Shown piece after piece: positions 16,043 through 53,598 of a DNA stretch of 64,000 nt. The stretch covers positions 68,320 through 132,319 of the IMG/VR virus record IMGVR_UViG_3300010396_000001; one strand, written 5' to 3'. How positions within the stretch are numbered: the first letter of the stretch is position 1; the number at the start of each line of letters is the position of its first letter. Under the pieces are notes generated by a model that was not told the DNA's origin, ran no database searches, and saw only the letters and a list, made by a program, of their open reading frames with translations. This DNA is from a virus. Lineage: Duplodnaviria > Heunggongvirae > Uroviricota > Caudoviricetes. The translations under genes and the position numbers were made by a program.

Positions 16043-17032
16043 ATGGGAGGCGGCAGCTACTCAGCTTCCACTTACGATGCCGTGCGCTCGTATAACTCCA
16101 CGCACGGGATCGACGACTTCGTCTATGCCGCCAGCGGCGCCACCACGACGCACGAGTCCCTGGACGTCAAGGGCAAGGGCCTCGACGGCAAGGGCGCCAC
16201 CCGCGAGAGCCGCGACAGCGCCGAGCATCCGCTCTCGCTGCCGATCGCGATCTTCGAGGACGTGACCGGCTCGATGGCCAGCGTCCCGCGGCTGCTGCTG
16301 GACAAGCTGCCCCAGCTGCAGGGCCTGCTGCAGCGCAAGGGCTACGCCACCGACCCGCAGATCATGTTCGCCGCCATCGGCGACGCCACGGTGGACAGCG
16401 CCCCGCTGCAGGTCGGCCAGTTCGAGTCCGACAACCGGATGGACAGCGACCTCACCAACCTCCTGCTCGAAGGCGGCGGGGGCGGCGGCCGGCAGGAGTC
16501 CTATGAGCTGGCGCTGTACTTCCTCGCCCGCCACACGGCCACCGACAGCTGGGAGAAGCGCGGCCATCGCGGCTACGCCTTCATCATCGGCGATGAGATG
16601 GCCTACCCGTTCGTCAAGCGCGCTGAGGTCGCCGAGCACATCGGCGACACCCTGCAGGACAACATCCCGCTCCAGGAGATCCTCGACGAGGTCCGGCAGA
16701 AGTGGGACATCTACTACATCCTGCCCGAGGGAGCCTCTTACGTCGGCGATGCCGAGCACCTGGCCTTCTGGCGCGGGCTGCTCGGGCAGAACGTGATCGA
16801 GCTGGGCAGCCTGGACGCGGTCTGCGAGACGATCGCGCTGACCATCGGGCTCGCCGAGGGCACCACCGACCTGACCACGGGGCTGTCCGACCTGAAGGAC
16901 GTCGGCTCCTCCTCCGGCGATGTCGTCTCCAGGGCGCTGGCCACGATCGGGTCGGCGACCGGCCGGGGCGGCGTGGTGGCAGCGCCGCCGCCCGGTGCTC
17001 TTGACGCTCCCAGCGGCAGCGAGCGCCTCTGA
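16043..17032 (+). CDS. von Willebrand factor A (vWA) domain protein
   Basis: RBS AAAGGAGAC. MIDAS-like LPIAIFEDVTGSMASV (DxTxS), vWA-like alternation of hydrophobic strands, Gly-rich linker. Confidence 0.55.
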   Translation: MGGGSYSASTYDAVRSYNSTHGIDDFVYAASGATTTHESLDVKGKGLDGKGATRESRDSAEHPLSLPIAIFEDVTGSMASVPRLLLDKLPQLQGLLQRKGYATDPQIMFAAIGDATVDSAPLQVGQFESDNRMDSDLTNLLLEGGGGGGRQESYELALYFLARHTATDSWEKRGHRGYAFIIGDEMAYPFVKRAEVAEHIGDTLQDNIPLQEILDEVRQKWDIYYILPEGASYVGDAEHLAFWRGLLGQNVIELGSLDAVCETIALTIGLAEGTTDLTTGLSDLKDVGSSSGDVVSRALATIGSATGRGGVVAAPPPGALDAPSGSERL

Positions 17033-17035
17033 CAT

Positions 17036-18332
17036 GAAAACTCCCCGCCATTACATCGTGGCTGACCTCGGCTACGGGGACAGCGGGAAGGGCACGGTGA
17101 CGGACTGGCTCTGCTCACGCGACGCGGAGCCGGCCCGTCTCGTGGTCCGCTATAACGGCGGTGCCCAGGCCGGCCACAACGTCGTGCTGCCGGACGGCCG
17201 TCACCACTGCTTCAGCCAGTTCGGCTCCGGCACCCTGCAGGGTGCGCGCACCCACCTGTCCCGGTACATGATGGTGGACCCGCTCGCCCTGACGGCCGAG
17301 GCCGAGCACCTGACCGGGCTCGGCATCGCCAGCCCGTACTCGCTGCTGACCGTGGACCGGGATGCCCTGCTGACCACGCCCTATCACATCGCGGCTAACC
17401 GGGCCCGCGAGCTGGCCCGCGATGAGGACCGGCACGGCTCCTGCGGCAAGGGCATCGGCGAGACTGCCCGCTATGCCGAGCAGCATCCGCTGCGGGCTCC
17501 CAGGGCCGTGCATGCGCTTGCGCCCAGGAACATGGCTCGTTACCTGGATGCGCTGCGGCGGCAGCTGGAAGAGGAACTCGGGCCGCTGCAGGACGTGCCG
17601 GAGGTCAGCGAGCTAACTCGTGCCTACGCTGCCTTCGCCGACTGCGTCCGGCTGACGAGCGGGAATTACCTGACGCACCAGCTGGAAAGCGAGTCGGCGG
17701 TATTCGAGGGAGCGCAGGGCGTCCTGCTCGACGAGACCTACGGATTCCAGCCGTACACCACCTGGAGCACGACCACATTCCGCAATGCGGAACGACTGCT
17801 TGCTCCTTCTGGCATCAAGGGCCTGCGCATCGGGGTAATCCGCACCTACATGACCCGGCACGGGCCGGGTCCGTTCCCCACCGAGGACGAGATGCTCGGC
17901 ATTCCTGAGCCGCACAATCCCCCGAACGACTGGCAGGGAACAGCACGACTGGGGCACCTGGACGGAGTGGTGCTTCGCTATGCAGTTAAGGTCTGCGGCG
18001 GAACTGATTTCCTTGCGGTCACCCATTACGATGCGCACCTGGATAATGTTTACGGTGGTCCCGCGCTGAAGATATGCCCGGCCTACCTGAGCAGAGAGGG
18101 CCCCGTTATCCGGGAGATCAGTCACGCTCCCGATGATCCTGAAGGCCTCACGAAGACCCTGATAGGCGCTCGGCCGGTCTATATGCGCCTGCCCCAGCAC
18201 GGCTGGGGAGACCGGCTGCAGAAGATCACCGGGGTACCTGTCGGCATCGTCTCCCACGGGCCTACGTTCAGGCAGAAAGTCACCACCGACGCATGGGATG
18301 AAGCGGTTGCCGGCGCAGTTCAGACGGGATAG
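17036..18332 (+). CDS. adenylosuccinate synthetase homologue (PurA-like; possibly PurZ, 2-aminoadenine pathway)
   Basis: IVADLGYGDSGKGTVTD (P-loop GDxGKG), RYNGGAQAGHN (catalytic His), FEGAQGVLLD, VSHGP. The RRRR motif of PurA is absent. ATG at 17036; the upstream extension to 16920 is rejected. Confidence 0.8.
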
Positions 18333-28856: not shown

Positions 28857-28866
28857 GACCGCCGCA

Positions 28867-28892
28867 GCCCCGGCAGGATTACCTGCCGGGGC
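28867..28892. terminator. bidirectional terminator-like hairpin between convergent terL and the rsr-like gene
   Basis: Perfect 11-bp stem GCCCCGGCAGG / CCTGCCGGGGC with loop ATTA. Confidence 0.45.
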
Positions 28893-28925
28893 CGCGGTGG
28901 TCAAGGCTCGCCGTGGCTGACTTTA

Positions 28926-30668
28926 TCAGGCCCGCAGGTCCTGCGCGGGCCGGGCCGTGCGGACCACCGGGCGCACCGGCTGGTCCGGGGCCGGGACCTC
29001 GAACGGCCAGGGCGCGTCACGGCCGCGCTCCAGCAGGCTCATCTGGGTGAAGGCGCCGTCACCCAGTCCGGCCAGCAGGTGGCGGGTTGGCCCCGTCGGG
29101 ATCGCCCCGTAGGTGTACCCGGCCAGGTTCCACATGTAGACCGGGGTGTCCTTCGGGATGAGCTTGTCGATCTCCGTCGGTGCCCGGCCGCCCCGGCCGT
29201 AGCCGTGCATGTTCGAGGGCAGCAGGCCCGCCCGGGTCTGCTCGTCGGTGATGATGACGACCCGGTCATGCCCGTGCAGGTGACTGACCACGGCCGAGGG
29301 GATGTCGGTGCCCGACTCCAGCCGGCCAGACCCGTCGCCCTTGCCGAACCGCTCAACGACCTTCAGCACGGACTCGCCCCTGCTGAAGGGCACGGCGCCG
29401 GAGCGCCCGCTGAACTCGACCAGGTCGGCATGCTGCGCCCGGACGGCCAGCGCCGCGCCGAAGATGGCCGCGCCATCGGCCCAGTTCATCTTCGAGCGCT
29501 TGCTCATGTTCTTTTCCCACATGGACAGCGAGCGGTCCACCAGGATGAGCGTGTACCCGCTCAGGGCCGGGACATGCGACAGGGACTGGTTCAGCGCCCG
29601 CTCCAGGGGATAGGCCCACCGCAGTGACGCTGCGGCCCGGTAGGCCGCCAGGAAGCGGAACGGGAACTGCCGCGAGTTCGCGACCGCCTCGGGGGCCGAC
29701 AGGCGCATGGCCACCTGCTCCGCCACCTCGTCGGGCACTCCCGCCTGGTCGAAGTTGCGCAGGTTGCGCAGCAGGGCCATGTAGCCCATCGACGGGATGC
29801 AGGCCTGCCACGCCGCTGCGTCCATCGGGCCCTGCAGCCAGCCGGAGACCGCCTCCCACTTGATGCCCGCGTCGGCGATGCGCTGGGCGCCGCCGGGCGA
29901 GACCAGGAACGCGCGCCGCTCCTCCCGCGGCATCGCGAAGATGCGCCGGGCCGCCGCGATGACCGGCAGGTGCTCCAGCATGGCCGCGTCCGGGCTGGAG
30001 TGCACCCGGTCGGTGATGTCGCGCCCGTGCCGGGTCATGATCGCGTAGCGGTACAGGTGATCGCGCCAGGTGCCGTAGGCCTCGCGATTGTACCGGGGCC
30101 GCGACAGCTCGATGACGTCTCCGAATCGCAGCGCCGCCTCGGCCGAGTCGTCACGCAGCAGGGCCCGCTCGGTGTACAGGCGGAAGACGCCGTCGGCGAT
30201 CCCGCGCTGGAACGCATGCGGGGCCTTGCGGCCGTAATTGGCCAGCCAGTAGGCCCAGGCCTCGCCGGGCTCATCCCCGCGCTGCAGCACGCCGTCGAGC
30301 AGGAAGCGCCCGTAGGGCGCCTGCCTGGCGACGCTGCGGGCGCGGACGACCTCGGCGGCGGCCAGGACCGGGGCCGAGCGCATGTTGCCCTCCAGCCGCA
30401 GCCAGGGCAGGAAGCCGCGCATCCAGTCATAGTCAGCCAGGCCGACCTGCCGGATCAGGTCGCGGAAGCGGCCGTCGCGGGTCATGGCGTTCTCGTGGTG
30501 GGTGTCCTCGCCGACGAAGTTCGAGACGCCCAGCATGAACAGGGCGCTCTTCTCGTCGCGGGCATAGCCGGGATGGCCGAGCGCGGTGCGCCCCGAGGGA
30601 TCGGCCTCGGCGGCCAGCGGGCCGCGGACGGCGGCCTGGACCTTCTGCTTGTTGAACTTGCCGGGCAT
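28926..30668 (-). CDS. rsr: Ro60/Rsr-like RNA-binding protein (TROVE-like N-region + C-terminal vWA with MIDAS)
   Basis: 581-aa minus-strand CDS from the ATG (reverse complement of 30666-30668) with RBS CAGGAGGAG. C-terminal LILVDRSLSMW (DxSxS). Sits next to tRNA-like ncRNA modules. The upstream part of ORF 28926..30830 is rejected as translation of the ncRNA. Confidence 0.6.
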   Translation of the reverse strand: MPGKFNKQKVQAAVRGPLAAEADPSGRTALGHPGYARDEKSALFMLGVSNFVGEDTHHENAMTRDGRFRDLIRQVGLADYDWMRGFLPWLRLEGNMRSAPVLAAAEVVRARSVARQAPYGRFLLDGVLQRGDEPGEAWAYWLANYGRKAPHAFQRGIADGVFRLYTERALLRDDSAEAALRFGDVIELSRPRYNREAYGTWRDHLYRYAIMTRHGRDITDRVHSSPDAAMLEHLPVIAAARRIFAMPREERRAFLVSPGGAQRIADAGIKWEAVSGWLQGPMDAAAWQACIPSMGYMALLRNLRNFDQAGVPDEVAEQVAMRLSAPEAVANSRQFPFRFLAAYRAAASLRWAYPLERALNQSLSHVPALSGYTLILVDRSLSMWEKNMSKRSKMNWADGAAIFGAALAVRAQHADLVEFSGRSGAVPFSRGESVLKVVERFGKGDGSGRLESGTDIPSAVVSHLHGHDRVVIITDEQTRAGLLPSNMHGYGRGGRAPTEIDKLIPKDTPVYMWNLAGYTYGAIPTGPTRHLLAGLGDGAFTQMSLLERGRDAPWPFEVPAPDQPVRPVVRTARPAQDLRA

Positions 30669-30719
30669 GTGCTCCTCCTGCAGCAAGGGGGAGGGCCCTG
30701 GCTTTCCCTCATAACGGGA

Positions 30720-30935
30720 CAGCGACATGACCGAGAACGAGTCGGCGAAAGAACCTGCTAGACCATTGCTCTGCCAAGCTGAGCTACGTCCCGGTTTCCC
30801 GGGACGACAGGACTTGAACCTGCGACCCACGGTGGGATGAAGTAACTCTCACCTGCAGTCCGGTCACATCGCTATCCAGTTATGGGGCCCCGGAACGGGA
30901 TAGGAGCGCAGCGAAAACGATTCGGCGGCGGCATG
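30720..30935 (-). ncRNA. YrlA-type Y-RNA-like ncRNA with a permuted tRNA-like module (T-arm, GAAA-capped acceptor-like hairpin, D-arm)
   Basis: Minus strand reads GCAGGTTCAAGTCCTGT (T-arm), CGTCCCGG-gaaa-CCGGGACG, TAGCTCAGCTTGGCAGAGCA (D-arm) at 30755-30835. Flanked by gaagtaaC...cagtccgg and CCGA-nAACGAg-TCGG hairpin motifs. Confidence 0.5.
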
Positions 30936-30999
30936 CGCCTCTCCCAAAGAAGTAGCCGTTGCCATGCAGTCCGCTGCACCGCTATCCAGTTCGGGGTGG

Positions 31000-31190
31000 G
31001 TGCCGATAACGAGTCGGCTGAGGAAACGTAGCGCTCTGCCAATTGAGCTACGCCCCGGTACCCCAGGGCGACGGGGCTCGAACCCGCACCTCTCACTTAT
31101 CAGGTGAAGTAACCCCTGCCTGTCAGTCCGGCACCCGCTAAGCCTTGAGCCCTCCCGATAACGAGTCGGCGGCGGTCTTGGCCTTCGAGC
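31000..31190 (-). ncRNA. second Y-RNA-like ncRNA with a permuted tRNA-like module
   Basis: Minus strand at 31025-31100: GTGCGGGTTCGAGCCCCGT (T-arm-like), CGCCCTGG-ggta-CCGGGGCG hairpin, TAGCTCAATTGGCAGAGCG (D-arm). Same flanking repeat motifs as unit 1. Confidence 0.45.
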
Positions 31191-31327
31191 AAAGAAGTAA
31201 CCGTTGCCATAGCAGTCCGGGAGGACCTGCAGGAGTCAACGTACCTGAGGGATGTGAGCCGCGCAAGCCATTAGGCAACATCCGGGTGCTAGCATCCTTG
31301 CCAGCCTCATGACGGAAGGAGGACGAG

Positions 31328-31531
31328 GTGCCGGAGATCATTATCCTGCTCGTGGCTCTCATGGCCGTGGTCGCCGGCGTGCCCGTGACCGTGATCATCC
31401 TCCGGGCCCGGAGGAAGCCGCCCGTGCTGAGTGCCTACGAGCAGCATGTGGACAACTTCATCCGGACCGGTGACTGGGCCGAGCTGGACCGGGCGACTGA
31501 CGAGATAGGTAACGAAGACAGTAAGGAGTGA
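31328..31531 (+). CDS. small membrane protein (one TM helix)
   Basis: GTG start with RBS GGAAGGAGGA. IIILLVALMAVVAGVPVTVIIL hydrophobic segment. Confidence 0.5.
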   Translation: MPEIIILLVALMAVVAGVPVTVIILRARRKPPVLSAYEQHVDNFIRTGDWAELDRATDEIGNEDSKE

Positions 31532-31534
31532 TTC

Positions 31535-32473
31535 ATGTTCTGGTTCTTTCTGGCGGTAGTTGTATTCCTGGGATGCCTCGGCTGCGTAGTGGGCGCTTTG
31601 GCTTCCCAGGATAAGAGGATGGCGGCTGGCGGCGCGGCAGTTATCTGCCTGATCGTTGCTCTTATCCTGTTCTTCATCAGCGGCATCAGGGAAGTGCCGA
31701 ATAAGAGCATCGGCGTCCCGACCTCGATTGGCAAGGTGGGTACCGTCATGCGGCCCGGCCTGCACCATACGGCGCCGTGGACGCGGGTGAACATTCTTCC
31801 CGAGACCGTTCAGACGACGACCTTCGAGGGCTGCCAGGGCGCATTCTGCACGGGCAGCCATCCCACGCACGGGAACTGCCTGGAAGTCCGGATCGGCGGC
31901 CAGCAGACCGCCTGCCTGGACGTCACCATCCAGTGGCGCATTCTCGATTCCGGCGGCCCCGGCCTGTACAACAACTACGGCTCCTCGGGCAACGGCAGCG
32001 TGATCAGCGACATCACCAACGCCGTGGTGGTCCGCGAGCTGAAGTCCGTGGTCAACGCGCAGATGGGCGACTATAACCCGATCCAGGACGTGGCCGCGAA
32101 CGCGACCAGCGGGAACAGCCAGTTCTCCAAGTTCGGCCCGAAGGTCCTCGCGCAGATGCGCAAGGACCTGGCTGGCCGGATCAAGGTGCTGAGCCTGTAC
32201 ATGCCGCTGCTGCGGTACGACGAGGCGACGCAGGCGCGCCTGAATTCCATTCAGGCGCAGTATGCCGAGACGGCCATTGCCGAGCAGCTGAAGAAGACCA
32301 ACGAGGCGCAGGCAGCGGCCAATGCTGCCATCACCAGGTCGCTCAGCCAGGCGGACCTGACTTACCTGTGCCTGCAGATTGTGCAGAATGCAGAGAAGTC
32401 CGGGTACGGCGGCCTGCCGGCCACGCTCAACTGCGTCGGGTCAGGTTCCGGCCTGGTGGCCGTCAAGGGCTGA
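31535..32473 (+). CDS. SPFH/band-7 (stomatin/prohibitin/HflKC-like) membrane protein
   Basis: N-terminal TM (FWFFLAVVVFLGCLGCVVGALA), then IREVPNKSIGVPTSIGKVGTVMRPGLHHTAPWTRVNILPETVQTTTF, typical of band-7 cores. C-terminal Ala/Gln-rich coiled coil. Confidence 0.7.
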   Translation: MFWFFLAVVVFLGCLGCVVGALASQDKRMAAGGAAVICLIVALILFFISGIREVPNKSIGVPTSIGKVGTVMRPGLHHTAPWTRVNILPETVQTTTFEGCQGAFCTGSHPTHGNCLEVRIGGQQTACLDVTIQWRILDSGGPGLYNNYGSSGNGSVISDITNAVVVRELKSVVNAQMGDYNPIQDVAANATSGNSQFSKFGPKVLAQMRKDLAGRIKVLSLYMPLLRYDEATQARLNSIQAQYAETAIAEQLKKTNEAQAAANAAITRSLSQADLTYLCLQIVQNAEKSGYGGLPATLNCVGSGSGLVAVKG

Positions 32474-37458: not shown

Positions 37459-37983
37459 ATGGATGATGAGCGGCCAATTCTAGGACTTGATGTAGACGGC
37501 GTCCTTAATGCCCTTAATCAGGGCGCCACGCCGCCCGGGTGGGAGTTCACCACGGTTCGCGGCAACCTGCCGATCTGCTATAACCCCCGCCACGGCGAGC
37601 AGCTGCAGAAGATCGCCTCCGACGGCGGCGCCGAGCTGGTCTGGTGCACCATCTGGGAGGACCTGGCCAACGAGCACATCGCCCCGCTGGTCGGCCTGCC
37701 GCAGCTGCCCTGGGTCACGATGGACGAGTCCATGGCCGCCGTGATCGCCGAGCGGCGCATCAAGTTCAGCCAGGCCATCCCGGTAGGCGCCGTCAAGGCA
37801 CGGGCCATGGCCGTCTATGCCGCGGGGCGCCCGGTGTGCTGGCTGGAGGACGAGCCGGACGCGCCCGCCGAGTTCAGCTCCTACCCGGCCCCGCACCTGG
37901 TGGTGCAGACCGACTCGTTCGAGGGGCTGCAGGATATCCACCTTGCCGCGGCAGCAGCATGGCTGGCGTCGCTGCGCGCCTGA
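37459..37983 (+). CDS. HAD-superfamily phosphatase-like protein
   Basis: ILGLDVDGVL (DxDGx motif I of the HAD fold) at the N-terminus. Confidence 0.6.
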   Translation: MDDERPILGLDVDGVLNALNQGATPPGWEFTTVRGNLPICYNPRHGEQLQKIASDGGAELVWCTIWEDLANEHIAPLVGLPQLPWVTMDESMAAVIAERRIKFSQAIPVGAVKARAMAVYAAGRPVCWLEDEPDAPAEFSSYPAPHLVVQTDSFEGLQDIHLAAAAAWLASLRA

Positions 37984-38014
37984 GGTGCTGCCCGGAAGCC
38001 TTCAGGAGGTACCG

Positions 38015-41000
38015 GTGCCTGATCCCCTGATTGCTGCCTTCAGCGACCCCCCTGACCTGGCCGCTCACTTCGGCGCCCGCGAGCGCTACCCCCGCGGCCA
38101 GTCACGCTGCGACTGCTGCGAGGGCAGCGGCAGCCACGGCCGCGACAAGTGCCGCCGCTGCCGCGGGCTGGGCCACGTGAAGGAGGGCTCGGCTGAGCCC
38201 TGGTGCGAGGAGTCGGAGGCGCCCCGGCCCCGCCGCCGGCACTGGCGGGAGAGCGAGCGCACCGCCTCGGACACCGGCTACCGCCAGTCGCACGAGGCGC
38301 CGGGCGATGACGACTACGGCGACCGGCTGCACGAGGTGGGCACGAAGCCCGGCGGCGGCATCTACCCGCCCGATGCCCTGAAGCGCCCGCATGACTACGG
38401 GGCCTTCCACTCCGAGACCGCCGACAAGGTGCGGCGGGCCAGCGGGAAGCCCGATCACAAGGTCTGGGTCTATCGCTCGATGCCCTCGCCGCACCGGGAG
38501 ATCAACACCGGCGACTGGGTGGCCACGGCCGCCGAGTATGCCCGCCAGCACGGCCGCGAGTCCAGCGCTGCCGACGACTGGCCGGTGATCAAGTTCCAGG
38601 CCCGCGCTGATCAGCTGTCCAGCGTCGGCGACATGGAGGAGTGGGGCTACCACGGTCCCCCGGTGAAGCGGGGCCTGGTGCACTTCAGGGGCGGCAGGAA
38701 CCAGCAGGGCGGCGTGCCCCGCGGCAAGACCGACGCCATGTGCCATGAGCACGAGCCGCAGGAGATGCAGGAGCACTACGGCCGGATCACGAACGAGCGC
38801 GTCAAGCGCCGGGGCGACGAGCGCGAGGCGCAGGGCCTGCCGCGGTACCGCACCCGGTCGCAGGGCGCCCGCCAGCCCTATGTGGTCTACCACGGGGCCC
38901 ACCATGACGACGTGCCCTCGATCCTGCGCGAGGGCCTGCGTCCCGGCATCCGCGGCGCCACGGTCACCGACAGCCGCGAGGGGGCCTCGCTGATCGCTCA
39001 CATGCGCGACTGGACCGACCCGCGGGTGGTCGAGATCCACGTCCCGCATGCCGAGCGCGACGCCTACCTCGGCGCTGGCCAGGACGGGCCCGAGGGCACC
39101 GCGCACGAGCTGCGCCGCCAGCTGCCCGCCAGCTGGGTGGCTCAGGTGCACACCGCCGCTTACGATGCGCCGCCGCGGGAGTATTCCGCCGGGCGCATGC
39201 TGGTGGCCGACATCAGGATCCCCGGCGAGGGACGGCTGTCCGAGCGCCCCTACACCCAGCGCGAGCTGGCCGCCGACATCCGGCGCAACGGCGTGCAGCA
39301 GCCCGTTGCCGTCGAGCACCTGCCCGCGCACGGCGGCCCGACCTCGTTCAACGGCATGCACCGCCTGGACGCCGCCCGCCGCGCCGGGGTCGCCGACGTG
39401 CCGGTGGTCGTCAAGCACCTGCCCGGCCAGCCCCCGCCCATGACCGGGCGCCGGGCGGCCAGCGAGCAGGAGTTTAACGATGCCTTCGACCTGGAGCGCG
39501 AGGGTCGGTGGGCCGGGCAGCACGAGGCGGCTCGCATCCTGCACCTCCCGCTGCACATGGTGAGCGAGATGGGCTCCGAGTACGGCCAGGATGAGCACGG
39601 CCGCCGGATCACCATGGCTGACATCGGGAAGTACTCTCCCGAGCGGATGGCGGATGAGCGCTACGCGCCAGCTGATCTGCGGGCCATGACTGAGAGCGTG
39701 CGCCGGGGCGGCGTCCGGAAGGCGCTGGACGTCGAGACAACCTCCGACGGGGACCGCGGCATCGTGCTGGACGGCACTCACCGGTACTGGGCAGCGGCCC
39801 AGGCCGGGCGCTCGCACGTGCCGGTGCGGTTCCACGGGCCTGACCCGGACCGGGCCCGCGCGCACTACCAGCAGCGCATCGAGAATGAGGAGCAGCGTCC
39901 CGGATCAGCGCGCACCGGGTCAGCTGAAGGACCCTGGTACCACGGCACCACTGATGAGTACGCGCCCGGCGACCAGATCGAGCACCACTACTGGAAGAAG
40001 TACCCGGACCGGCCTGATTTCCGCCAGCACAGCCCGCTGTACGTGACCGGGAACCCGTCCCTGGCCGCCCACATCGCCGACCTGCGGGAGCGCCAGTCCG
40101 GCCGCAGGGTGCCCGGCCGCATGTATGAAGTGAGGCCGTCCGGCTCCCTGTCCCCTGATGAGATCGCCGCCCCGATCGTGCGCAACCGTGATTCCTGGCA
40201 GGCGACCTCGCCGCTGCACGTGATCAGGGAAGTGCCCCGCGGGGAATGGCCGCAGGACCTGAGCGCCTGGCGCGTCACGCAGCAGCATGAGGGCCGCAGG
40301 CTGCCTGACTGGCTGGAGGAGACGTTCGAGCATGCGAGGAGCAGCCTGGCGAGCCTGCCCGCGTGGGCGCGCCCGGTGGTGACCCATCCAGCCCCCCGGC
40401 TATCTAGTCGCTCCGATGATCACCCTCCGCTTAGCCCGCAGCGCCATGACCAGGGACGGGTTTCAGGGTCAGCCGGCAGTGAGCATCGATCCGGGAGTGG
40501 TCATCCTCCGGTTACGGGCGCCCCCCGTATCAAGGTGCCTCTCGAAGGTGGCCACAACTGGGAGGAGAACCTGCGGCTGCTGCGTCATCGCAAGCGCAGT
40601 GAGCCCCTCATGCACCGGGGGATCGCGGTCGAGCTGCCGCCGGAGGTGCACAGCTTCGTTCATGATCAGTTCCAGGACCGGGACCGCCAGGCCCGTGCCA
40701 TCGCCGAGCACCTGCGCGGCCGTCCTCTCGGCATGCACTGGTCGGCCGGCGAGAAGACGCCCCGCCATTTCGCTGACTTCGAGAAGAAGAAGAGCCTGCC
40801 CGGCTCGACCAAGGTCATCCTGCACGCAGCCCTGCCCGAGGTTGATCACATCGAGACGGACCGGGAGAAGCTCGCCGAGGGCGGCGTGCTCGGCTACGGG
40901 GCCATGGGCAGCAGCGAGTACGAGATCCCGGTGAAGGCCGGGGCACCGGTGCGCATCAAGGGCATCACCTGGTATGGCTACGGCAACCGCAAGCGCAGCG

Positions 41001-43456
41001 GGAATCTCTACGATCACGTTCACGAGGCCAGCCTGCGCACTGCTGCGGTGCCTGAGTACGGCCTCCGGCCTGAGTTCCGGATGGCTCCCGAGGACTGGGA
41101 CGATGAGCGCCGCTCGGCCTATCACGAGCAGCAGTTCGGAGCCGAGCGTGCCTGGCGGCGCAGCATGCGCAACGGCCTGTCAATGGGCCACCTCACCAAC
41201 GAGCAGGCCCTGGGCCTGGGCTACCACGGCCGCGGTCATGATCAGTCCTCCTACCACGCCGGCCCGGCCTGGAAGCCGTTGCCGCATGACCTCTACCACG
41301 TCACCACCGACATGGAGGGCGTCCGCCGCCATGGCCTGCTGGCTCCCGATGAGCGTGAGAACTTCCGGCCCACTGGCCTCGGCGGCAGCGAGGACGACTC
41401 GGTCTCGCTGACCTCCAGCCACGAGCGGGCCCGCGGCATCCTGCGGGCGATGCGCGAGTATCACCACGCGCTGCACTCTGACCCGCATGAGCTGTGGGAG
41501 CGGGCGCAGAGGGGCGACCAGGGCTCGGAGCCCTTCCATCGTGACCTGGCCCGCTACCATGACCGCGACTGGGAGCCCGGCCAGGAGCTGCCCCGCGAGC
41601 TGAGCGACCAGCTGAACGGCACCCGGCATGAGCACGGCATGGCCACGCGCGAGGAGAAGCCAGGCTGGACCCCGCTCGACGAGGGCATGAAGACGCCGAG
41701 GGGGCACTACCACTTCGGCTGGGAGCGCCCGGCCACCGACGAGGAGAAGCTGCACCAGCGCTCGGACCTGTTCAAGCACTTCGTGGCCTACCGCGGCTGG
41801 GCGGGCGGCCCGGAGAACCCGACGTTCATGGGCAACGACCCGAAGGCGTTCAGCAAGCTCGATCCCTCGAACTTCGGCATCGTGCACCTGCATCCGCACC
41901 CCGGCGCCCAGGGCTACCACCTGCCCGCCGAGGACGAGTACCGGATCACCACCGGCAAGGCGGTCTACCCGCACCACTGGCAGCACGAGGCAGCCTCCCG
42001 CAAGATCGCGGCCTCCTCAGCTCCGCACCCGGGCCGCCTGCAGGGCGGCTCCTGCAGGGAGTACTGCACCTACGGCGGCACCCACTGCGCGGTCTGCCAC
42101 GAGCCGGTGAAGATCAACCTGCACAAGACCGAGGTCAACGGCGGCTGGCATCACCACGACAGCATCAAGCGCGACCACCCGGCCGTCCCCGCCGACCCGC
42201 AGGGCGTGATCGACTCGATCCCCGGCCAGCTGGCCAGCAGGGACCAGGTTCGCGCCGAGGTGGCTGACACCTTCCACCGCCAGCTGGAGGAGTACGGCGG
42301 CCGGCCGCTCCCCCGCCGCGGTGACGACCAGCTGCCCCCTGACCCGTTCACTCACGAGGGAGCGCGGGTGCCGTCCTCAGGCGCATCTTTTTACCGGGGC
42401 GGCCGGCAGGAATATCAGCCAGGTGACCTGATCTCGCCTCAAGATAGCACTCACGTCTATGCCACCTCTCATGCTGCCAATGCCAAGATGTATGGCCCGC
42501 ATGTTTATGAAGTGGAATTCACTGGTCCGCACGAGCCTGATCCGGAGTATCTCGGTAATGGTGCTTTCCGGCGCTCGGTGCATCCGGTGCGCGTGATCAG
42601 AGACGCGACGGAGCATGCCACGGCTGAGGTAGGCGCAAGGCATTTCGGCGCCTGGGTGCCCAGCTCAGGTGTCTTCGGTCCCACTACCGGCCTCGACCCG
42701 CAGCTCTTCACTGAGGCGCAGCAGCTGCGCCCGCAGGTCCGCGAGGCGATCCTGGAGCGCCTGGCGGTAAGCCTGCATCAGCTGCTTGGCGAGGGGTGGC
42801 AGTCCCTCGTCCGGGTCTACCTCGCGGGGGGGAGCGCCAGCGAGTGGGCTGGCGCCCGCCCAGGTGAGCAGGGGGCTCGTGATCTCGACGTCCTCATCGG
42901 CCCGCAGGACCCGCAGGGTCTCGCCCGGGAGACTGGCCACGACGGCGTGGCCGGGAGCGGTCCGCACGCCGTGGGTGAAGGCGAGCAGGTAGCTCAGGTC
43001 ATCAACCGCGTCCTGCGGGCTCACTTCAATGATGAGCACTGGCTCCCCGGTTTTGGCGGGTCCTGGTCCCTGACTGGCTATTACAATCCGCATGCCGGCG
43101 ACATTACCGCGATCCATCCGTATGCGGCCTGGGACCTGACGAACAGCCGGTGGGCCGTGAAGCCGCCGCATCTGCCGCACCACTCGGTGGCTGACTTCGA
43201 CCCGGCCGTGATCCGTCATGCACGGGCCATGGCCACCGAGGCCCGTGCCATCCTGCAGCTGCCCGAGCCGTTCCGTCACCAGCAGGCGAGGGACCTGTGG
43301 GACCGGCTGCACGCCGCCCGCTCGCGGGCCTTCTCCGACGAGGGCGCGGGCTGGCAGGATCCCGGTAACCTGGCCGAGAAGTGGCTGGCCTACAGCCCCC
43401 GCAATATCCTCGGCAGGATCAAGGAGCTGGCTCATGGCGCCGCCGGACCCGCTTGA
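38015..43456 (+). CDS. giant polyvalent protein (about 1814 aa): DnaJ-type CxxCxGxG zinc finger, two ParB-like domains, several Arr-like ADP-ribosyltransferase-like modules
   Basis: GTG at 38015 with RBS AGGAGG (the ORF start at 37817 is rejected because it overlaps the HAD gene). ParB-like GMHRLDAARRAGVADVPVVV (about 39290-39430) and LDGTHRYWAAAQAGRSHVPV (about 39700-39830). Arr-like HGT...PGD...YEV.P.G...VIR modules at about 39935-40245 and 42375-42610. Confidence 0.75.
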   Translation: MPDPLIAAFSDPPDLAAHFGARERYPRGQSRCDCCEGSGSHGRDKCRRCRGLGHVKEGSAEPWCEESEAPRPRRRHWRESERTASDTGYRQSHEAPGDDDYGDRLHEVGTKPGGGIYPPDALKRPHDYGAFHSETADKVRRASGKPDHKVWVYRSMPSPHREINTGDWVATAAEYARQHGRESSAADDWPVIKFQARADQLSSVGDMEEWGYHGPPVKRGLVHFRGGRNQQGGVPRGKTDAMCHEHEPQEMQEHYGRITNERVKRRGDEREAQGLPRYRTRSQGARQPYVVYHGAHHDDVPSILREGLRPGIRGATVTDSREGASLIAHMRDWTDPRVVEIHVPHAERDAYLGAGQDGPEGTAHELRRQLPASWVAQVHTAAYDAPPREYSAGRMLVADIRIPGEGRLSERPYTQRELAADIRRNGVQQPVAVEHLPAHGGPTSFNGMHRLDAARRAGVADVPVVVKHLPGQPPPMTGRRAASEQEFNDAFDLEREGRWAGQHEAARILHLPLHMVSEMGSEYGQDEHGRRITMADIGKYSPERMADERYAPADLRAMTESVRRGGVRKALDVETTSDGDRGIVLDGTHRYWAAAQAGRSHVPVRFHGPDPDRARAHYQQRIENEEQRPGSARTGSAEGPWYHGTTDEYAPGDQIEHHYWKKYPDRPDFRQHSPLYVTGNPSLAAHIADLRERQSGRRVPGRMYEVRPSGSLSPDEIAAPIVRNRDSWQATSPLHVIREVPRGEWPQDLSAWRVTQQHEGRRLPDWLEETFEHARSSLASLPAWARPVVTHPAPRLSSRSDDHPPLSPQRHDQGRVSGSAGSEHRSGSGHPPVTGAPRIKVPLEGGHNWEENLRLLRHRKRSEPLMHRGIAVELPPEVHSFVHDQFQDRDRQARAIAEHLRGRPLGMHWSAGEKTPRHFADFEKKKSLPGSTKVILHAALPEVDHIETDREKLAEGGVLGYGAMGSSEYEIPVKAGAPVRIKGITWYGYGNRKRSGNLYDHVHEASLRTAAVPEYGLRPEFRMAPEDWDDERRSAYHEQQFGAERAWRRSMRNGLSMGHLTNEQALGLGYHGRGHDQSSYHAGPAWKPLPHDLYHVTTDMEGVRRHGLLAPDERENFRPTGLGGSEDDSVSLTSSHERARGILRAMREYHHALHSDPHELWERAQRGDQGSEPFHRDLARYHDRDWEPGQELPRELSDQLNGTRHEHGMATREEKPGWTPLDEGMKTPRGHYHFGWERPATDEEKLHQRSDLFKHFVAYRGWAGGPENPTFMGNDPKAFSKLDPSNFGIVHLHPHPGAQGYHLPAEDEYRITTGKAVYPHHWQHEAASRKIAASSAPHPGRLQGGSCREYCTYGGTHCAVCHEPVKINLHKTEVNGGWHHHDSIKRDHPAVPADPQGVIDSIPGQLASRDQVRAEVADTFHRQLEEYGGRPLPRRGDDQLPPDPFTHEGARVPSSGASFYRGGRQEYQPGDLISPQDSTHVYATSHAANAKMYGPHVYEVEFTGPHEPDPEYLGNGAFRRSVHPVRVIRDATEHATAEVGARHFGAWVPSSGVFGPTTGLDPQLFTEAQQLRPQVREAILERLAVSLHQLLGEGWQSLVRVYLAGGSASEWAGARPGEQGARDLDVLIGPQDPQGLARETGHDGVAGSGPHAVGEGEQVAQVINRVLRAHFNDEHWLPGFGGSWSLTGYYNPHAGDITAIHPYAAWDLTNSRWAVKPPHLPHHSVADFDPAVIRHARAMATEARAILQLPEPFRHQQARDLWDRLHAARSRAFSDEGAGWQDPGNLAEKWLAYSPRNILGRIKELAHGAAGPA

Positions 43457-43680
43457 TCGAGACTGCCGACCATGCCGATCCCCTTGCTGCAGGCGGCTAC
43501 GTGGCTGCCGTCGGCAGCTTCCTGCTCGCCGCCATCGGCTTCGAGCCGGAGGGAAAGGCCGAGGTGATGATAGAGATCGGCGCCGATCCCGAGCCGGACA
43601 AGGCGCGCATCATCCTGAGCTGGCCGCTGCCTGAGCAGGGGCCCGCCACCACCGGCCAGGGGTGCCCGGAAGCCATGTGA
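43453..43680 (+). CDS. small hydrophobic protein (TTG start), uncertain
   Basis: TTG overlapping the upstream stop. High GC3. Its stop overlaps the GTG of the next giant gene (GTGA). Confidence 0.3.
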   Translation: MIETADHADPLAAGGYVAAVGSFLLAAIGFEPEGKAEVMIEIGADPEPDKARIILSWPLPEQGPATTGQGCPEAM

Positions 43681-46600
43681 CTGACCTGCTCGACCACTTC
43701 GCCGCGCCTGACCTCATGGAGCACTTCGGGGCCTACTACTATCACGGCACTAACCGGGACCTGAAGCCCGGCGACATGATCGAGCCGGGGCATGAGCAGG
43801 TCTGGGAGGGGTCGTCTCCGCATCACGTCTACATGACCCCCGACCACGACCTGGCGCACATGTACGCTGAGACGGCTGCCGCCATGAAGGAGCACGGCAG
43901 CCCTCGCGTCTACACCGTCGAGCCCACCGGCCCGCATGAGGACGACCCGGAGTTCGGCCGCGATGACGACGCCACTGAGGGCCTGGAGTCCTACCGGTCA
44001 GCTCACCCGCTGCGCGTGATCGAGGGCGCCGCCGACGCGGGCTTCCCCAATCCCTACCACGGCACCGCGCAGTTCGGCGGCCGTCCCGAGTGGTCTCGCA
44101 CGTGGTTCCACGGCACGAGGGGCGTCCCGGAGTTCGGCGAGCGCCGCGGGCACGGCGACGACGTCGCCCGGACGCGCCTCCCGTTCGGGGAGCGCATGAA
44201 GGGCAGCGGCTGGCCGCAGCCCAACCAGATGATGGGCGTGCACTTCAGCCCGCTGCATGAGGTGGCCCACAAGTTCGCGGGCTCGGTCTCCTCCACTCCG
44301 TCGGCGATCGTCCACGCCCGGCTGCACATGAGCAACCCGGCGCACTACCCCTCGGAGATGCACCTCAACTACGCAGTCGCGCACTGGGCCAGCCAGCATT
44401 ACCCGCACTGGCATGACCAGAAGGTCAATGATCACCTGGGCTGGAACTACTCCGACCGCGAGGGCACGCACCGCGACTTCTCCTCGGTACCGGACCGGAA
44501 GTACGCTCACGACAAGGCTCAGGACGTCCTCCAGTGGCACCCGCACCTGCCCGAGATCCTGCACGGCTTCCGGCAGCACCTGCGCGAGCAGGGCCACCGC
44601 GGCATCACCTACGGCAACAACGTCGAGGGCCCGTACGAGACCGATGCCACCCGCGGCGGCGAGGCGGGCATGAAGGCCATCCGCAAGCGCGAGGGCATGG
44701 GCGGCAGCCCGGTCTCGATCTCGGCGATCGTGCATCCGGGTGACATCGAGATCACTCATGCCGAGCACATCTCGCCCTGGCGCAAGGAGCCTGAGCCGCA
44801 CGAGCGCACCTGGGAGGCCGTCAGCGACGCCGACGAGCCCGACGAGATGCGCGACCGGGTCCTGGCCTGGCACCGCGAGCACGGCGGCGCCTACCCCCGC
44901 CAGGAGCGCACTGCCGCCCGCATGGCCGCCTCCGGGAGCCAGCTGGAAGGCCGTGACTACGAGGGCACCGAGGGCAACCCGAGCCACATCACGCGCACCG
45001 AGCTGGGCATGATCCGCACCGACGCCATCGCCGGGCTGCACGGGGTCAAGGGCGAGCGGCCCGGCGAGCACCGTAACCGGCAGGGCGCGAAGTGGGACGA
45101 GTTCAAGCAGGACATCGCGAGTAACGGCATCAGGCACCCGGTCTTCATCACCGTTGATCACGGCGAGGAGCCGAAGATCAGCGAGGGCAATCACCGGCGG
45201 GACGCCGCGGTCGAGCTGGGCCACAGCCACGTGCCGGCCGAGATCACCTACTTCGGCCATGCCGAGCGCGCGGGCACCGTGGAGTCCAGGGGCCTGTCCC
45301 GGCACAGCCGCCAGCGCATTGACGAGCACCTGCGCACCCATAACTGGTGCGCCCAGTGCAGCCGCGACGTCCGCAAGGACGAGTGGGCCCGGCACGTGAA
45401 TGATCATCACCGGACGGCTGCCCGCTCCCCGGTCATGTATCACGCCTCGCCTTACCACAACCGGGCCGGTATCGCCCGGCTGCACCCGCACACTGCAGCG
45501 GCTGGCCGCGTCTGGTACCACGGCACGCCTGACGAGCGGACCTGGGAGCACGGCGCCGGATATGGCATTCACATCGGTACCGAGGATGCTGCACGCCAGG
45601 CGCTGCATGCCCGCATTGGCAAGCCGGCTGAGGGCGAGTGGGATGGCACCCGTGAGTACGGCAAGACACTGCTGAACCGGGATCAGCGCCGCTGGGAATG
45701 GAAAGACGGCAAGATGACCGATCATGTCGATCATCATCCGCCGTCTTATCCAGATCCGGAAGGAGGCCCGTCATATTCGGGCGGCGAGCGCATTCCCATG
45801 GATGCGCGCCCGAGTGTCTTCCCGGTGCATATCAAGGGCCCGATGACAAATACCCCTGATAATCCGCACCCGGACTTTCATGCCAATGGTTACATGCACG
45901 GGCAGATTAAGCGCGGGAGAGCAAAGTCGGGGTACTTCTATACAAATGTCAGCGAGGACGAGGGATCTATCTCTGCGGTTGTTCCCTCGGCTGCGCACCT
46001 GGAGCGCATTCACCCGCCGCATGAGGCCGCGCGCAGGACTACGGCGGTATCGCACTGGCAGCACCGCGACTGCGGCGTCTATGCCTATGCCCTGACCCAG
46101 AAGGACCCGGCCCTGCGGATCGGCGAGCTGAGTGAAGAAGAGCACAAGATGCTCCCGGCTGCACACCGCCATATCCGAGAGAACAAGGTCCTGGGAGATC
46201 GCGGCCAGAAGACCGCTAAAAGCGAGAAGCCGACGCGCTCGAAGGCCAGCGTTAATTACCGGCATGCCACGGGAAAGCACCGGTGCGGCAACTGCGTGAT
46301 GTTCCGGCTGCATTCCCCGGACTTCGAGTCAGGCGGCTGCACCCTGGTGAAGGGAGCGATTAAGGCAAGCGATACCTGCGATAAGTGGTATCCGCAGGAT
46401 AAGGCGAGTAAGAGCGGGGGCCTGCTTGCCCACTTCGGCGCGGCCGAGGACGACGAGCCCAACCGGGCCGTTCATGCGCTGGTTGAGCACAGGGTCAGCC
46501 AGCAGCACCCCGAGGTGAATGAGCCCGTCACCGATCACACCGCCACGCTGCGGGCGATGCTCGGCCGGGCCAGCTTCTTCATGCCCCGCGAGGAGATCGA

Positions 46601-53596: not shown

Positions 53597-53598
53597 CC

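What the first reader, a model, noticed from the sequence alone, without database searches (positions are those of the whole stretch)
28926..31270. Rsr (Ro60)-like gene with an adjacent array of Y-RNA-like ncRNAs containing permuted tRNA-like modules
The minus-strand CDS 28926..30668 has a C-terminal vWA with DxSxS and a long helical N-region, consistent with a Ro60/TROVE protein. Immediately 5' of it on the same strand lie two elements with clear tRNA T-arm (GGTTCAAGTCC / GGTTCGAGCCC) and D-arm (TAGCTCAGCTTGGCAGAGC / TAGCTCAATTGGCAGAGC) sequences. Their order is T-arm, a GNRA/GGUA-capped acceptor-like hairpin, then D-arm, so they are circularly permuted relative to tRNA, as described for bacterial YrlA Y RNAs that mimic tRNA. 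Around them are four copies of a gaagtaaC-N10-cagtccgg motif and four CCGA-nAACGAg-TCGG hairpins. This suggests up to four Y-RNA-like transcripts, two with the tRNA-like module and two without. The long ORF 28926..30830 runs through module 1 and is a translation artefact.
Basis: partly seen in the sequence, partly recalled or inferred. Interest (0 to 1): 0.75.

Follow-up and report, generated by a model that had tools for sequence, protein, structure and literature searches.

The report
Phage Ro60 gene with four Y RNAs
An uncultivated high-GC phage carries a Ro60 (Rsr) RNA-binding protein gene preceded by four tandem Y-RNA-like genes, two of them with a rearranged tRNA-like module; this is a clear new example of a known system, not a new kind of system.

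Summary

- **Protein.** CDS 28926-30668(-) is a Ro60/Rsr orthologue. It has a TROVE domain, an intact MIDAS motif, and a predicted fold whose best 13 PDB matches are all Ro60/Rsr structures.
- **RNAs.** Four tandem units lie upstream on the same strand: A 31149-31226, B 30997-31137, C 30898-30987, D 30718-30876. Each has a covarying terminal stem, a conserved internal loop (5' CCGGACUG, 3' GACUCGUUAUCGG), a second helix and a (G)YUACUUC junction. A and C end in a short hairpin. B and D carry V hairpin, T arm, 7-bp acceptor hairpin and D arm, as in YrlA.
- **Context.** A model seeded on the short units finds about 60 homologous units upstream of Ro-like genes in about 50 other loci, with strong covariation. 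Arrays of 2-8 units are the rule there.
- **Prior work.** Phage and bacterial Y RNAs beside Ro60 are published (Chen 2014; Thermus phage phiLo 2025).
- **Local peculiarities.** The predicted Rsr-binding motif is a rare variant, and unit B has an anticodon-arm-like V hairpin that ARAGORN miscalls as tRNA-Ile.

The parts
28926..30668 (-). rsr: Ro60/Rsr orthologue, 580 aa (TROVE/HEAT ring plus vWA domain with MIDAS residues D378, S380, S382, T454, D475)
   Evidence: Pfam TROVE 8e-15. Profile against PDB: phiLo Ro60 1e-52; Ro60/Rsr 1e-14. AF2 model pLDDT 83; top 13 Foldseek PDB hits are all Ro60/Rsr, TM 0.52-0.73. MIDAS residues are invariant in alignments of 10 and 35 sequences. The start is supported by the RBS and by N-terminal alignment.
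31149..31226 (-). Unit A: short (YrlB-like) Y RNA. Terminal stem GUCCUCCCGG/UCGGGAGGGC, internal loop, helix 2 (GGCAACGG/CCGCCGCC), UUACUUC, apical hairpin CUUC-UUUGCUC-GAAG.
   Evidence: R1 covariance model 90.2 bits, but this unit is a seed sequence. MFE fold z = -2.0.
30997..31137 (-). Unit B: long (YrlA-like) Y RNA. Terminal stem GGGUGCCGG/UCGGCACCC and helix 2. tRNA-like module at 31033-31108: V hairpin UUCAC-CUGAUAA-GUGAG 31092-31108; U48 31088; T arm 31071-31087; acceptor-like hairpin 31051-31070 (7 bp plus a G-C pair closing a GGUA loop); U8 A9 31049-31050; D arm 31033-31048 (A15).
   Evidence: Not in the R1 seed, yet found at 30.6 bits, E 4e-6, with a 73-nt apical insertion. Rfam YrlA 26.9 bits. 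Folds. A15:U48 Levitt pair.
30898..30987 (-). Unit C: short Y RNA with a 17-position terminal stem (16 pairs): GGAUAGCGGUGCAGCGG/UCGCUGCGCUCCUAUCC. Core at 30905-30980.
   Evidence: R1 93.6 bits, but this unit is a seed sequence. MFE fold z = -2.6.
30718..30876 (-). Unit D: long (YrlA-like) Y RNA with a 17-bp terminal stem GAUAGCGAUGUGACCGG/UCGGUCAUGUCGCUGUC. Core at 30725-30869. tRNA-like module at 30768-30836: V hairpin 30826-30836; C48 30824; T arm 30807-30823; acceptor-like hairpin 30787-30806 (7 bp plus a G-C pair closing a GAAA loop); D arm 30768-30784 (G15).
   Evidence: Not in the R1 seed; found at 28.5 bits, E 1.7e-5. Rfam YrlA 36.8 bits over the full model length. Folds. G15:C48.
31238..31266 (-). 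Candidate promoter for the array plus rsr: TTGCGC (31261-31266), 17-nt spacer, TACGTT (31238-31243), 11 nt before the first terminal stem.
   Evidence: Found by eye only; the consensus scan found nothing. It aligns position for position with TTGCAT-17-TAATGT (L259 2541-2569) ahead of the first unit of the closest full relative. Inference.
28864..28895 (-). 14-bp GC-rich hairpin (GCGGCCCCGGCAGG-UAAU-CCUGCCGGGGCUGC) 31 nt after the rsr stop codon, between convergent genes. Terminator-like, without a U tract.
   Evidence: Read from the sequence. Not called by the terminator scan, which requires a T run. Inference.

Best explanation
This is a phage-encoded Ro60/Rsr ribonucleoprotein module.

**What I infer happens.** A promoter at about 31238-31266 drives one minus-strand transcript carrying four Y RNAs followed by the rsr mRNA. 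The precursor is cut into individual Y RNAs, as shown for M. smegmatis YrlA/YrlB.

**Anatomy (shown).** Each Y RNA closes its 5' and 3' ends into a long stem. The inner end of that stem (CCGG/UCGG), together with the conserved asymmetric loop (5' ACUG, 3' GACUCGUUA), sits where the known Rsr-binding motif sits (GNCGAAN0-1G in bacteria, GGUCCGA in vertebrates).

**Function (inferred by homology).**
- The ring-shaped phage Rsr binds at that site.
- The distal ends act as effector-binding modules. Units A and C carry a small pyrimidine-rich hairpin (YrlB type). Units B and D carry an L-shaped tRNA mimic with its break at the anticodon-stem position (YrlA type).
- By analogy with Deinococcus, Salmonella and Thermus phage phiLo, the RNAs gate Rsr and tether it to host factors. 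The best candidate is the 3'-5' exoribonuclease PNPase (a 'RYPER' complex). tRNA-elbow-binding enzymes are a further possibility for the tRNA-like units. This would redirect host structured-RNA decay or repair during infection.

**Shown here:** protein family and fold, RNA architecture, covariation, synteny. **Inferred:** co-transcription, processing, Rsr binding, PNPase tethering.
For: **Protein**
- TROVE domain.
- Profile match to phiLo Ro60, Ro60 and Rsr.
- Whole-length fold match to Ro60/Rsr structures only.
- MIDAS residues invariant.

**RNA in the window**
- Model R1 finds exactly four units, all on the rsr strand directly upstream. These include B and D, which were not in the seed.
- Rfam YrlA hits B and D.

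**Comparison with other loci**
- R1 finds 60 further matches, 59 of them upstream of and on the same strand as Ro-like genes.
- 15 of 20 modelled pairs show changes on both sides; 90% of cells are paired against 28-59% in slid controls; 0 of 500 shuffles reach the observed values.
- RNAalifold on 17 long units recovers helix 1, helix 2, T arm and D arm without my structure being supplied.
- The Levitt pair 15:48 is G:C in 47 and A:U in 32 of 86 modules (Fisher p = 1e-19). The window's own two modules split G:C (D) and A:U (B).
- 72 of 78 viral Ro loci have at least 2 GUUACUUC junction motifs within 1.2 kb upstream, against 0.2 per locus on the opposite strand.

**Literature**
- YrlA near Ro60 in 254 bacteria and 22 phages; M. 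smegmatis YrlA and YrlB upstream of rsr from one precursor; the YUAY motif; Levitt-pair covariation (PMC4201824).
- phiLo Ro60 binds two upstream Yrls and forms a complex with host PNPase (PMC12135203).
Against: - There is no expression, processing or binding data for this phage.
- Rfam YrlA scores are below the gathering threshold (36.8 and 26.9 against 69).
- The literal GNCGAAN0-1G or CGAA motif is absent from the 5' strand of all four units, which read CGGACUG.
- No consensus promoter or intrinsic terminator was detected by the scan.
- Single-sequence fold z-scores are modest (-2.0 to -2.7).
- The covariation alignment was fitted to the model, so it leans towards the modelled structure.
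- No PNPase, RtcB or other known partner gene was recognised among the ORFs of the window that I scanned.
Confidence: 0.82

Rival explanations
1. The four elements are mainly a cis-acting structured leader of the rsr mRNA. For example, they could be Rsr autoregulatory binding sites or stability elements, rather than being released as stable trans-acting Y RNAs.
For: The array lies between the only plausible promoter and the rsr start codon, with no detectable terminator between unit D and the CDS. The last unit ends only 50 nt before the ATG.
Against: - In M. smegmatis the equivalent upstream RNAs are processed from one precursor and accumulate bound to Rsr (PMC4201824).
- Unit number varies from 1 to 8 between relatives, which is unlike a fixed regulatory leader.
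- The tRNA-like tertiary pairs are conserved, which is not needed in a mere leader.
- The two readings are not mutually exclusive.
Confidence: 0.1
2. Unit B is a genuine tRNA-Ile(GAU) gene, and the modules are ordinary or degenerate phage tRNA genes sitting among repeats.
For: - ARAGORN calls tRNA-Ile(gat) at 31063-31138(-).
- Unit B has a 5-bp stem with a 7-nt CUGAUAA loop, followed by 4 nt and then a perfect T arm.
- Related phages carry rsr inside tRNA gene arrays.
Against: - The ARAGORN model has two mismatches at the top of its acceptor stem and a weak D arm made of Y-stem sequence.
- The Rfam tRNA model gives 20.8 bits against a threshold of 29 and aligns no D arm.
- The true D arm (UAGCUCAAUUGGCAGAGC) lies 3' of the T arm.
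- The same 'acceptor' nucleotides pair better in the covarying terminal stem.
- Unit D gets no tRNA call.
Confidence: 0.03
3. The units are decaying relics of a tRNA or repeat array with no present function.
For: Some relatives have modules lacking a D arm or with a degenerate T loop, for example L259 unit 3 and L212 1675-1802.
Against: - There is compensatory covariation in both stems, the T arm, the D arm and the 15:48 pair across dozens of loci whose Rsr proteins are only 42-67% identical.
- All four window units are intact.
Confidence: 0.03

Closest known systems
YrlA / YrlB Y RNAs with Rsr in Actinobacteria (M. smegmatis) and mycobacteriophages (Chen et al. 2014, RNA 20:1715, PMC4201824; Rfam RF02553)
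   Same: - The RNAs are encoded directly upstream of rsr on the same strand, and part of the array is swallowed by an over-long rsr ORF annotation.
- One RNA type has V, T, acceptor-like and D arms in that order; the other is a plain hairpin.
- The YUAY junction motif is present.
- The acceptor-like stem is 7 bp.
- The Levitt pair 15:48 covaries.
- A conserved 5' motif sits next to a terminal stem.
   Different: - There are four units (short, long, short, long) instead of two.
- The short unit precedes the long one.
- The 5' motif is CCGGACUG rather than GNCGAAN0-1G.
- Rfam scores are below the gathering threshold.
- Unit B's V hairpin has full anticodon-arm geometry.
Thermus phage phiLo phiRo60 with Yrl1 and Yrl2 (NAR 2025, PMC12135203; PDB 9KOP, 9L5Y)
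   Same: - It is a phage-encoded Ro60 with Y-RNA-like genes immediately upstream.
- It is the closest solved structure to the window protein (profile E 1e-52; Foldseek E 1.5e-17).
- The RNAs have a stem-bulge-stem architecture.
   Different: - It shares only 22% identity over the structural alignment.
- phiLo has two Yrls, identified through a CGAA motif. I found no mention of a tRNA-like module for them in the passages I read.
- The host is Thermus, not an actinomycete.
S. Typhimurium YrlA tRNA-like domain (PDB 6CU1; bioRxiv 10.1101/312249) and the D. radiodurans Yrn1-Rsr-PNPase complex
   Same: - A tRNA-like L-shape built from T, D and acceptor-like arms, with the Rsr-binding stem in the anticodon-stem position.
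- A tethering and gating mechanism is proposed.
   Different: - Salmonella YrlA has a 6-bp acceptor-like stem and no anticodon-loop mimic.
- Its operon context (rsr-yrlBA-rtcBA) is absent here.

Membership tests
Ro60 / Rsr (TROVE) protein | TROVE domain above Pfam's curated threshold | tested here: met
   PF05731 scores 55.3 bits against a cut-off of 23, E 8e-15. PHROG 850 'RNA-binding protein' 1.7e-34.
Ro60 / Rsr (TROVE) protein | C-terminal vWA domain with MIDAS residues (DxSxS ... T ... D) | tested here: met
   D378-R-S380-L-S382, T454 and D475 are invariant in alignments of 10 and 35 sequences. Pfam VWA_2 alone is sub-threshold (12.9 against 27). The model does show an alternating strand/helix C-terminal domain over residues 372-533.
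Ro60 / Rsr (TROVE) protein | Whole-length fold of alpha-helical repeats plus vWA domain, as in solved Ro60/Rsr structures | tested here: met
   AF2 model pLDDT 83, pTM 0.81. The Foldseek PDB top 13 are all Ro60/Rsr (9kop, 9l5y, 2nvo, 1yvp, 9nep and others), TM 0.52-0.73 over 531-579 alignment columns. The next hits are isolated vWA domains at E above 0.01. Ring closure itself was not measured.
Ro60 / Rsr (TROVE) protein | Binds Y RNA and misfolded RNA | not testable with these tools
   Needs RIP or EMSA.
YrlA (Rfam RF02553; Chen et al. 2014) | Score at or above the Rfam gathering threshold (69 bits) | tested here: not met
   36.8 bits (unit D, full model length) and 26.9 bits (unit B, module only). 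Chromosomal loci of Nonomuraea and Streptosporangium and every actinophage locus tested also fall below the threshold at 31-47 bits. The threshold therefore does not discriminate within this clade.
YrlA (Rfam RF02553; Chen et al. 2014) | Encoded within 4 kb of the Ro60 orthologue on the same strand | tested here: met
   Units lie 50-560 nt upstream of the ATG at 30668, all on the minus strand.
YrlA (Rfam RF02553; Chen et al. 2014) | Conserved T and D stem-loops with an acceptor-like stem-loop between them, in the order V-T-AS-D | tested here: met
   Units B and D. T and D arms are recovered with covariation by RNAalifold on 17 homologues.
YrlA (Rfam RF02553; Chen et al. 2014) | tRNA tertiary signature: Levitt pair G15:C48 or A15:U48 with compensatory change | tested here: met
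   D = G:C and B = A:U. Across 86 modules the pair is G:C in 47 and A:U in 32, with 7 others; Fisher p = 1e-19.
YrlA (Rfam RF02553; Chen et al. 2014) | GNCGAAN0-1G motif near the 5' end (putative Rsr-binding site) | tested here: not met
   All four units read (C/G)CGGACUG at the homologous position. Relatives L001 and L188 read CCCGAAGUG, which fits the motif apart from its first G. Most others read CCCGGUGCG. The position is conserved but the letters are not.
YrlA (Rfam RF02553; Chen et al. 2014) | YUAY motif that begins the V region | tested here: met
   UUAC in units A, B and D; CUAC in unit C; part of the conserved G(U/C)UACUUC.
YrlA (Rfam RF02553; Chen et al. 2014) | Stable RNA bound by Rsr in vivo | not testable with these tools
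   No expression data are available.
YrlB-type short Y RNA | [quoted passage not shown] | tested here: met
   Units A and C have the same stems and motifs as B and D, with apical loops UUUGCUC and UUUG. Homologous short units occur in about 40 loci. YrlB has no curated model, so this is an architectural match only.
Canonical tRNA | Cloverleaf in the standard order (acceptor, D, anticodon, T) scoring above the Rfam tRNA threshold | tested here: not met
   Rfam tRNA gives 20.8 bits against 29, with no D arm aligned. The ARAGORN tRNA-Ile call has a mismatched acceptor stem and a makeshift D arm. The real D arm lies 3' of the T arm.

The most novel reading that the evidence does not exclude
Two readings remain open.

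**(a) A retained anticodon arm.** In unit B, and in about 27 of 135 distinct long units in relatives, the 'V' hairpin is a complete anticodon-arm replica. It has a 5-bp stem and a 7-nt loop CU(G/U)NUAA with U33, U36, A37 and A38, and it sits 4-5 nt before the T stem. The two inner stem pairs covary.
- This would make these Y RNAs full tRNA cloverleaves with the break between the D arm and the anticodon arm.
- It would be either a relic supporting the proposed origin of Y RNAs from dimeric tRNA transcripts, or a working decoy or handle for factors that read anticodon loops. Candidates, from my own knowledge rather than from any test here, are t6A37 enzymes that recognise U36-A37 and anticodon nucleases.

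**(b) A private Rsr-Y RNA pair.** The window lineage's altered loop (5' GGACUG / 3' GUUAUCGG) differs from the GGUGCG / GAUCUCGG of chromosomal actinobacterial loci. It may give a phage-private Rsr-Y RNA pairing that avoids cross-talk with the host's own Rsr RNP.
Probability: 0.2. Interest if true: 0.6.

Novelty: new member of a known kind. Interest (0 to 1): 0.35.

Why it matters
- **Annotation.** Phage genomes routinely miss these RNAs. They extend rsr ORFs through them and sometimes call the modules tRNAs. Examples are the ARAGORN tRNA-Ile here and, probably, the GenBank 'tRNA-Arg(tct)' of Gordonia phage VanLee and 'tRNA-Ser(gct)' of Streptomyces phage Alone3.
- **Prevalence.** Y RNA arrays of 2-8 units with alternating short and tRNA-like members are the norm beside Ro60 genes of actinophages and prophage-like elements. 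That is more than the one or two usually discussed.
- **Natural variation.** The variant binding motif and the anticodon-like V hairpins offer material for testing Rsr specificity and the proposed tRNA-dimer origin of Y RNAs.
- **Limits.** It does not reveal a new kind of system.

Tried and rejected
- **Rfam at gathering thresholds.** Nothing was found over the whole window. Matches appeared only with E-value thresholds.
- **DNA search against isolated phages.** Megablast of the locus found no match. The phage is distant from all of them; its PolIII-alpha is under 36% identical to any.
- **Collection scans.** I scanned viral and genome collections with CCGGACTG-N8-14-GTTACTTC. The 16 specified bases were too unspecific: almost all hits were single chance matches in unrelated taxa.
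- **Six-sequence seed.** A MAFFT seed that included Kela and Quantum units was mis-registered by one column in the 3' strand, so I rebuilt from three cleanly aligned seeds.
- **Structure prediction.** I redid it with database homologues.
- **Promoter and terminator scan.** It found nothing. The promoter proposed here rests on by-eye alignment with L259 only.
- **Reviews and supplements.** The Sim & Wolin reviews and the Chen 2014 supplement were not available. I could therefore not check how many Y RNAs per phage were already tabulated.
- **Rejected readings.** Local CCGA/UCGG hairpins (see the observation check), a genuine tRNA-Ile gene, and the weak R1 hit at 51767-51839(+), which lies inside a coding ORF and lacks the junction motif.
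Full report
**Setting**

The window is part of a 160.7-kb ENA metagenome contig (ERZ27256653 k141_4613779). It is about 68% G+C. It carries phage replication and packaging genes:
- a Prim-Pol/D5 primase;
- a PolIII-alpha;
- a RecA/UvsX-like recombinase;
- a weak terminase-like match.

No isolated phage is close. There is no megablast hit for the locus, and the PolIII-alpha is under 36% identical to any.

**The protein**

CDS 28926-30668(-) encodes 580 aa.
- *Sequence.* It has a TROVE domain (55.3 bits against a cut-off of 23). It is 36-43% identical over most of its length to 'Ro-like RNA binding proteins' of Streptomyces, Gordonia and Arthrobacter phages. It is 52-58% identical to many metagenomic and chromosomal TROVE proteins, including those of Streptosporangiales, and 67% identical to one metagenomic protein.
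- *Profile.* A profile of it with nine phage homologues matches Thermus phage phiLo Ro60 (E 1e-52) and human and Xenopus Ro60 and D. radiodurans Rsr (about 1e-14).
- *Fold.* An AlphaFold model (pLDDT 83) has only Ro60/Rsr structures as its 13 best PDB matches, aligned over the whole length.
- *MIDAS.* Residues D378, S380, S382, T454 and D475 are invariant.
- *Start codon.* The ATG at 30668 follows an AGGAGG and aligns with the MxKFN N-termini of homologues. The longer ORF to 30830 is an artefact that runs through an RNA gene. Chen et al. noted the same for M. smegmatis.

**The RNAs in the window**

Reading the minus strand from 31232 to 30718, there are four tandem units.
- *Folds.* Folding each unit alone closes its ends into a stem of 9-17 bp. 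Next come an asymmetric internal loop, a second helix of 8-9 bp with a central A mismatch, the junction (G)YUACUUC, and an apical element.
- *Apical elements.* In A and C this is a 4-bp hairpin. In B and D it is a V hairpin, T arm, 7-bp acceptor-like stem (extended by one G-C pair that closes a GGUA or GAAA loop) and D arm.
- *Terminal stems.* Their sequences differ completely between the four units yet stay complementary: CCUCCCGG/UCGGGAGG, GGGUGCCGG/UCGGCACCC, GUGCAGCGG/UCGCUGCGC, GCGAUGUGACCGG/UCGGUCAUGUCGC.
The conserved GACUCGUUA is the 3' side of the internal loop.

**Covariance model**

I built model R1 from units A and C and one unit of a relative. In the 64-kb window it finds only these four places, including B and D with apical insertions of 73 and 86 nt (E 4e-6 and 1.7e-5). 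Rfam's YrlA model hits B and D below its gathering score.

**Relatives**

- *Phage genomes.* The Ro-like genes of eight GenBank actinophages have unannotated gaps upstream. These contain sub-threshold YrlA hits, often two per phage.
- *IMG/VR loci.* A profile scan found 257 loci encoding relatives, of which 80 were kept. In 72 of the 78 usable ones there are at least 2 GUUACUUC junction motifs within 1.2 kb upstream on the gene strand. The control on the opposite strand gives 0.2 per locus.
- *Array patterns.* The commonest patterns are short-long (23 loci) and short-long-long (13). The window's short-long-short-long occurs twice more. One locus has eight units.
- *R1 matches.* R1 finds 60 further matches in these loci, 59 of them on the gene strand upstream of the Ro-like gene.
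- *Covariation.* On that alignment, 15 of 20 pairs show changes on both sides. 90% of cells are paired against 28-59% when the partners are slid, and no shuffle reaches the observed values. The alignment was fitted to the model, which favours the modelled structure.
- *Independent check.* RNAalifold on a MAFFT alignment of 17 long units recovers both stems, the T arm and the D arm with compensatory changes.
- *Levitt pair.* The tRNA Levitt pair is G15:C48 or A15:U48 in 79 of 86 modules (p = 1e-19). The window's two modules take one state each.

**Comparison with what is known**

Chen et al. 2014 described all of the following:
- YrlA near Ro60 in 254 bacteria and 22 phages;
- the V-T-AS-D order of arms;
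- the YUAY motif;
- Levitt-pair covariation;
- a 5' GNCGAAN0-1G motif;
- a second, hairpin-type YrlB;
- processing of both M. smegmatis RNAs from one precursor upstream of rsr.

The phiLo study (2025) showed that a phage Ro60 binds two upstream Y-like RNAs and assembles with host PNPase. The window's locus is therefore a member of this system.

It fails two literal membership tests.
- *Rfam gathering score.* Chromosomal Nonomuraea and Streptosporangium loci also fail it, so the threshold is uninformative for this clade.
- *Exact 5' motif.* The window reads CCGGACUG with 3' GUUAUCGG. The great majority of relatives, including chromosomal ones, read CCCGGUGCG with 3' GAUCUCGG. L001 and L188 read CCCGAAGUG. 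Only L259, whose Rsr is 67% identical, shares GGACUG, and L263 (58% identical) has GAACUG.

The loop variant thus tracks the protein lineage. This is compatible with co-evolution of Rsr and its site, but four data points do not establish it.

**Expression (inferred)**

- TTGCGC-17-TACGTT at 31266-31238(-) lies 11 nt before unit A. It aligns exactly with TTGCAT-17-TAATGT before the first unit of L259. The generic scan did not call it.
- A 14-bp hairpin follows the rsr stop codon.
- A divergent plus-strand operon starts at 31328: a small membrane ORF followed by an SPFH protein.

**A detail that may be new**

Unit B's V hairpin is UUCAC-CUGAUAA-GUGAG, followed by 4 nt and then the T stem. That is exactly anticodon-arm plus variable-loop geometry.
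- Among 135 distinct long units, 39 carry CU(G/U)NUAA in this place. Of those, 27 have exactly 5 bp, 29 lie 4-5 nt before the T stem, and the inner stem pairs take at least six complementary combinations.
- This explains the tRNA-Ile call here. It probably also explains the 'tRNA-Arg(tct)' of phage VanLee and the 'tRNA-Ser(gct)' of Alone3, whose Rfam tRNA scores are 26.9 and 29.5 bits and which overlap Y-RNA-like units.
- Salmonella YrlA is described as lacking an anticodon loop. A model of origin from dimeric tRNA transcripts has also been proposed. A retained anticodon arm 5' of the T arm is what that model would leave behind.
- In several relatives rsr sits inside tRNA arrays.
- The minimum-energy fold of unit B prefers a competing hairpin, so the anticodon-like hairpin rests on comparative evidence alone.

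**Verdict**

This is a new member of a known kind. Interest is moderate to low for the locus itself. The family-wide array pattern, the variant Rsr site and the anticodon-like V arm are worth a note.

Noticed in passing
window 16896-18332 (+): Adenylosuccinate-synthetase homologue (Pfam Adenylsucc_synt 2e-56) inside the phage replication module, next to a RecA-like gene and PolIII-alpha. From my own knowledge, it is a possible PurZ-type enzyme for 2-aminoadenine genomes.
   Followed up: no
window 37787-43456 (+) and 43635-49862 (+): Two giant ORFs of 1889 and 2075 aa. The first has ParB_N plus an Arr-ms ADP-ribosyltransferase domain. The second has Arr-ms, NUDIX and 2'-5' RNA ligase (2H) domains.
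   Followed up: no
window 61087-61166 (-): ARAGORN tRNA-Arg(gcg), 85% G+C, lying inside the high-GC3 ORF 57614-61465(+). Very likely a false positive.
   Followed up: partly
L005 2201-2272 (Gordonia phage VanLee NC_073474) and L002 2277-2350 (Streptomyces phage Alone3 OR725492): The annotated tRNA-Arg(tct) and tRNA-Ser(gct) overlap Y-RNA-like units upstream of the Ro-like gene. They score 26.9 and 29.5 bits on the Rfam tRNA model (threshold 29). The 'anticodons' are the loops of V hairpins (CUUCUAA, CUGCUAA). They are probably mis-annotated Y RNA modules.
   Followed up: partly
L243 about 990-1840 (IMG/VR UViG_3300036794_000053); also L212, L257, L222: Very long arrays upstream of Ro-like genes: eight GUUACUUC-type units in L243, six in L212 and L257, and five in L222.
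   Followed up: no
L002, L004, L006, L009 (Alone3, Atuin, BRock, pSt2308); L003 (Kela): In these phages the Ro-like gene is embedded in large tRNA gene arrays. In Kela it lies directly after an RNA ligase gene. The window has no genuine tRNA nearby.
   Followed up: no
L006 4576-4739 and L002 4470-4702: Near-threshold matches to the manA RNA motif (RF01745; 49.7 and 47.8 bits against 55.2), between tRNA-Lys genes downstream of the Ro-like gene in BRock and Alone3.
   Followed up: no
window 31328-32473 (+): Divergent operon next to the array: a 67-aa ORF that by eye looks like a small hydrophobic membrane protein (31328-31531), followed by an SPFH/Band 7 protein (31535-32473).
   Followed up: no
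window 30877-30897 and 30988-30996 (-); L259 2813-2825: The spacers ahead of units C and D, and ahead of L259 unit 3, share AACUG(G/A)AUAGCG. In C and D the GAUAGCG part forms the outer end of the extended terminal stem. The A-to-B spacer (GGCUCAAGGCUUAGCGG) is likewise conserved in L259. These may be processing signals.
   Followed up: partly
window 51767-51839 (+): Weak R1 hit (19.3 bits, E 0.008) inside a coding ORF and without the junction motif. Judged to be chance.
   Followed up: partly
window 53254-54174 (+): Protein of the uracil-DNA glycosylase superfamily (Pfam UDG 2.5e-28).
   Followed up: no
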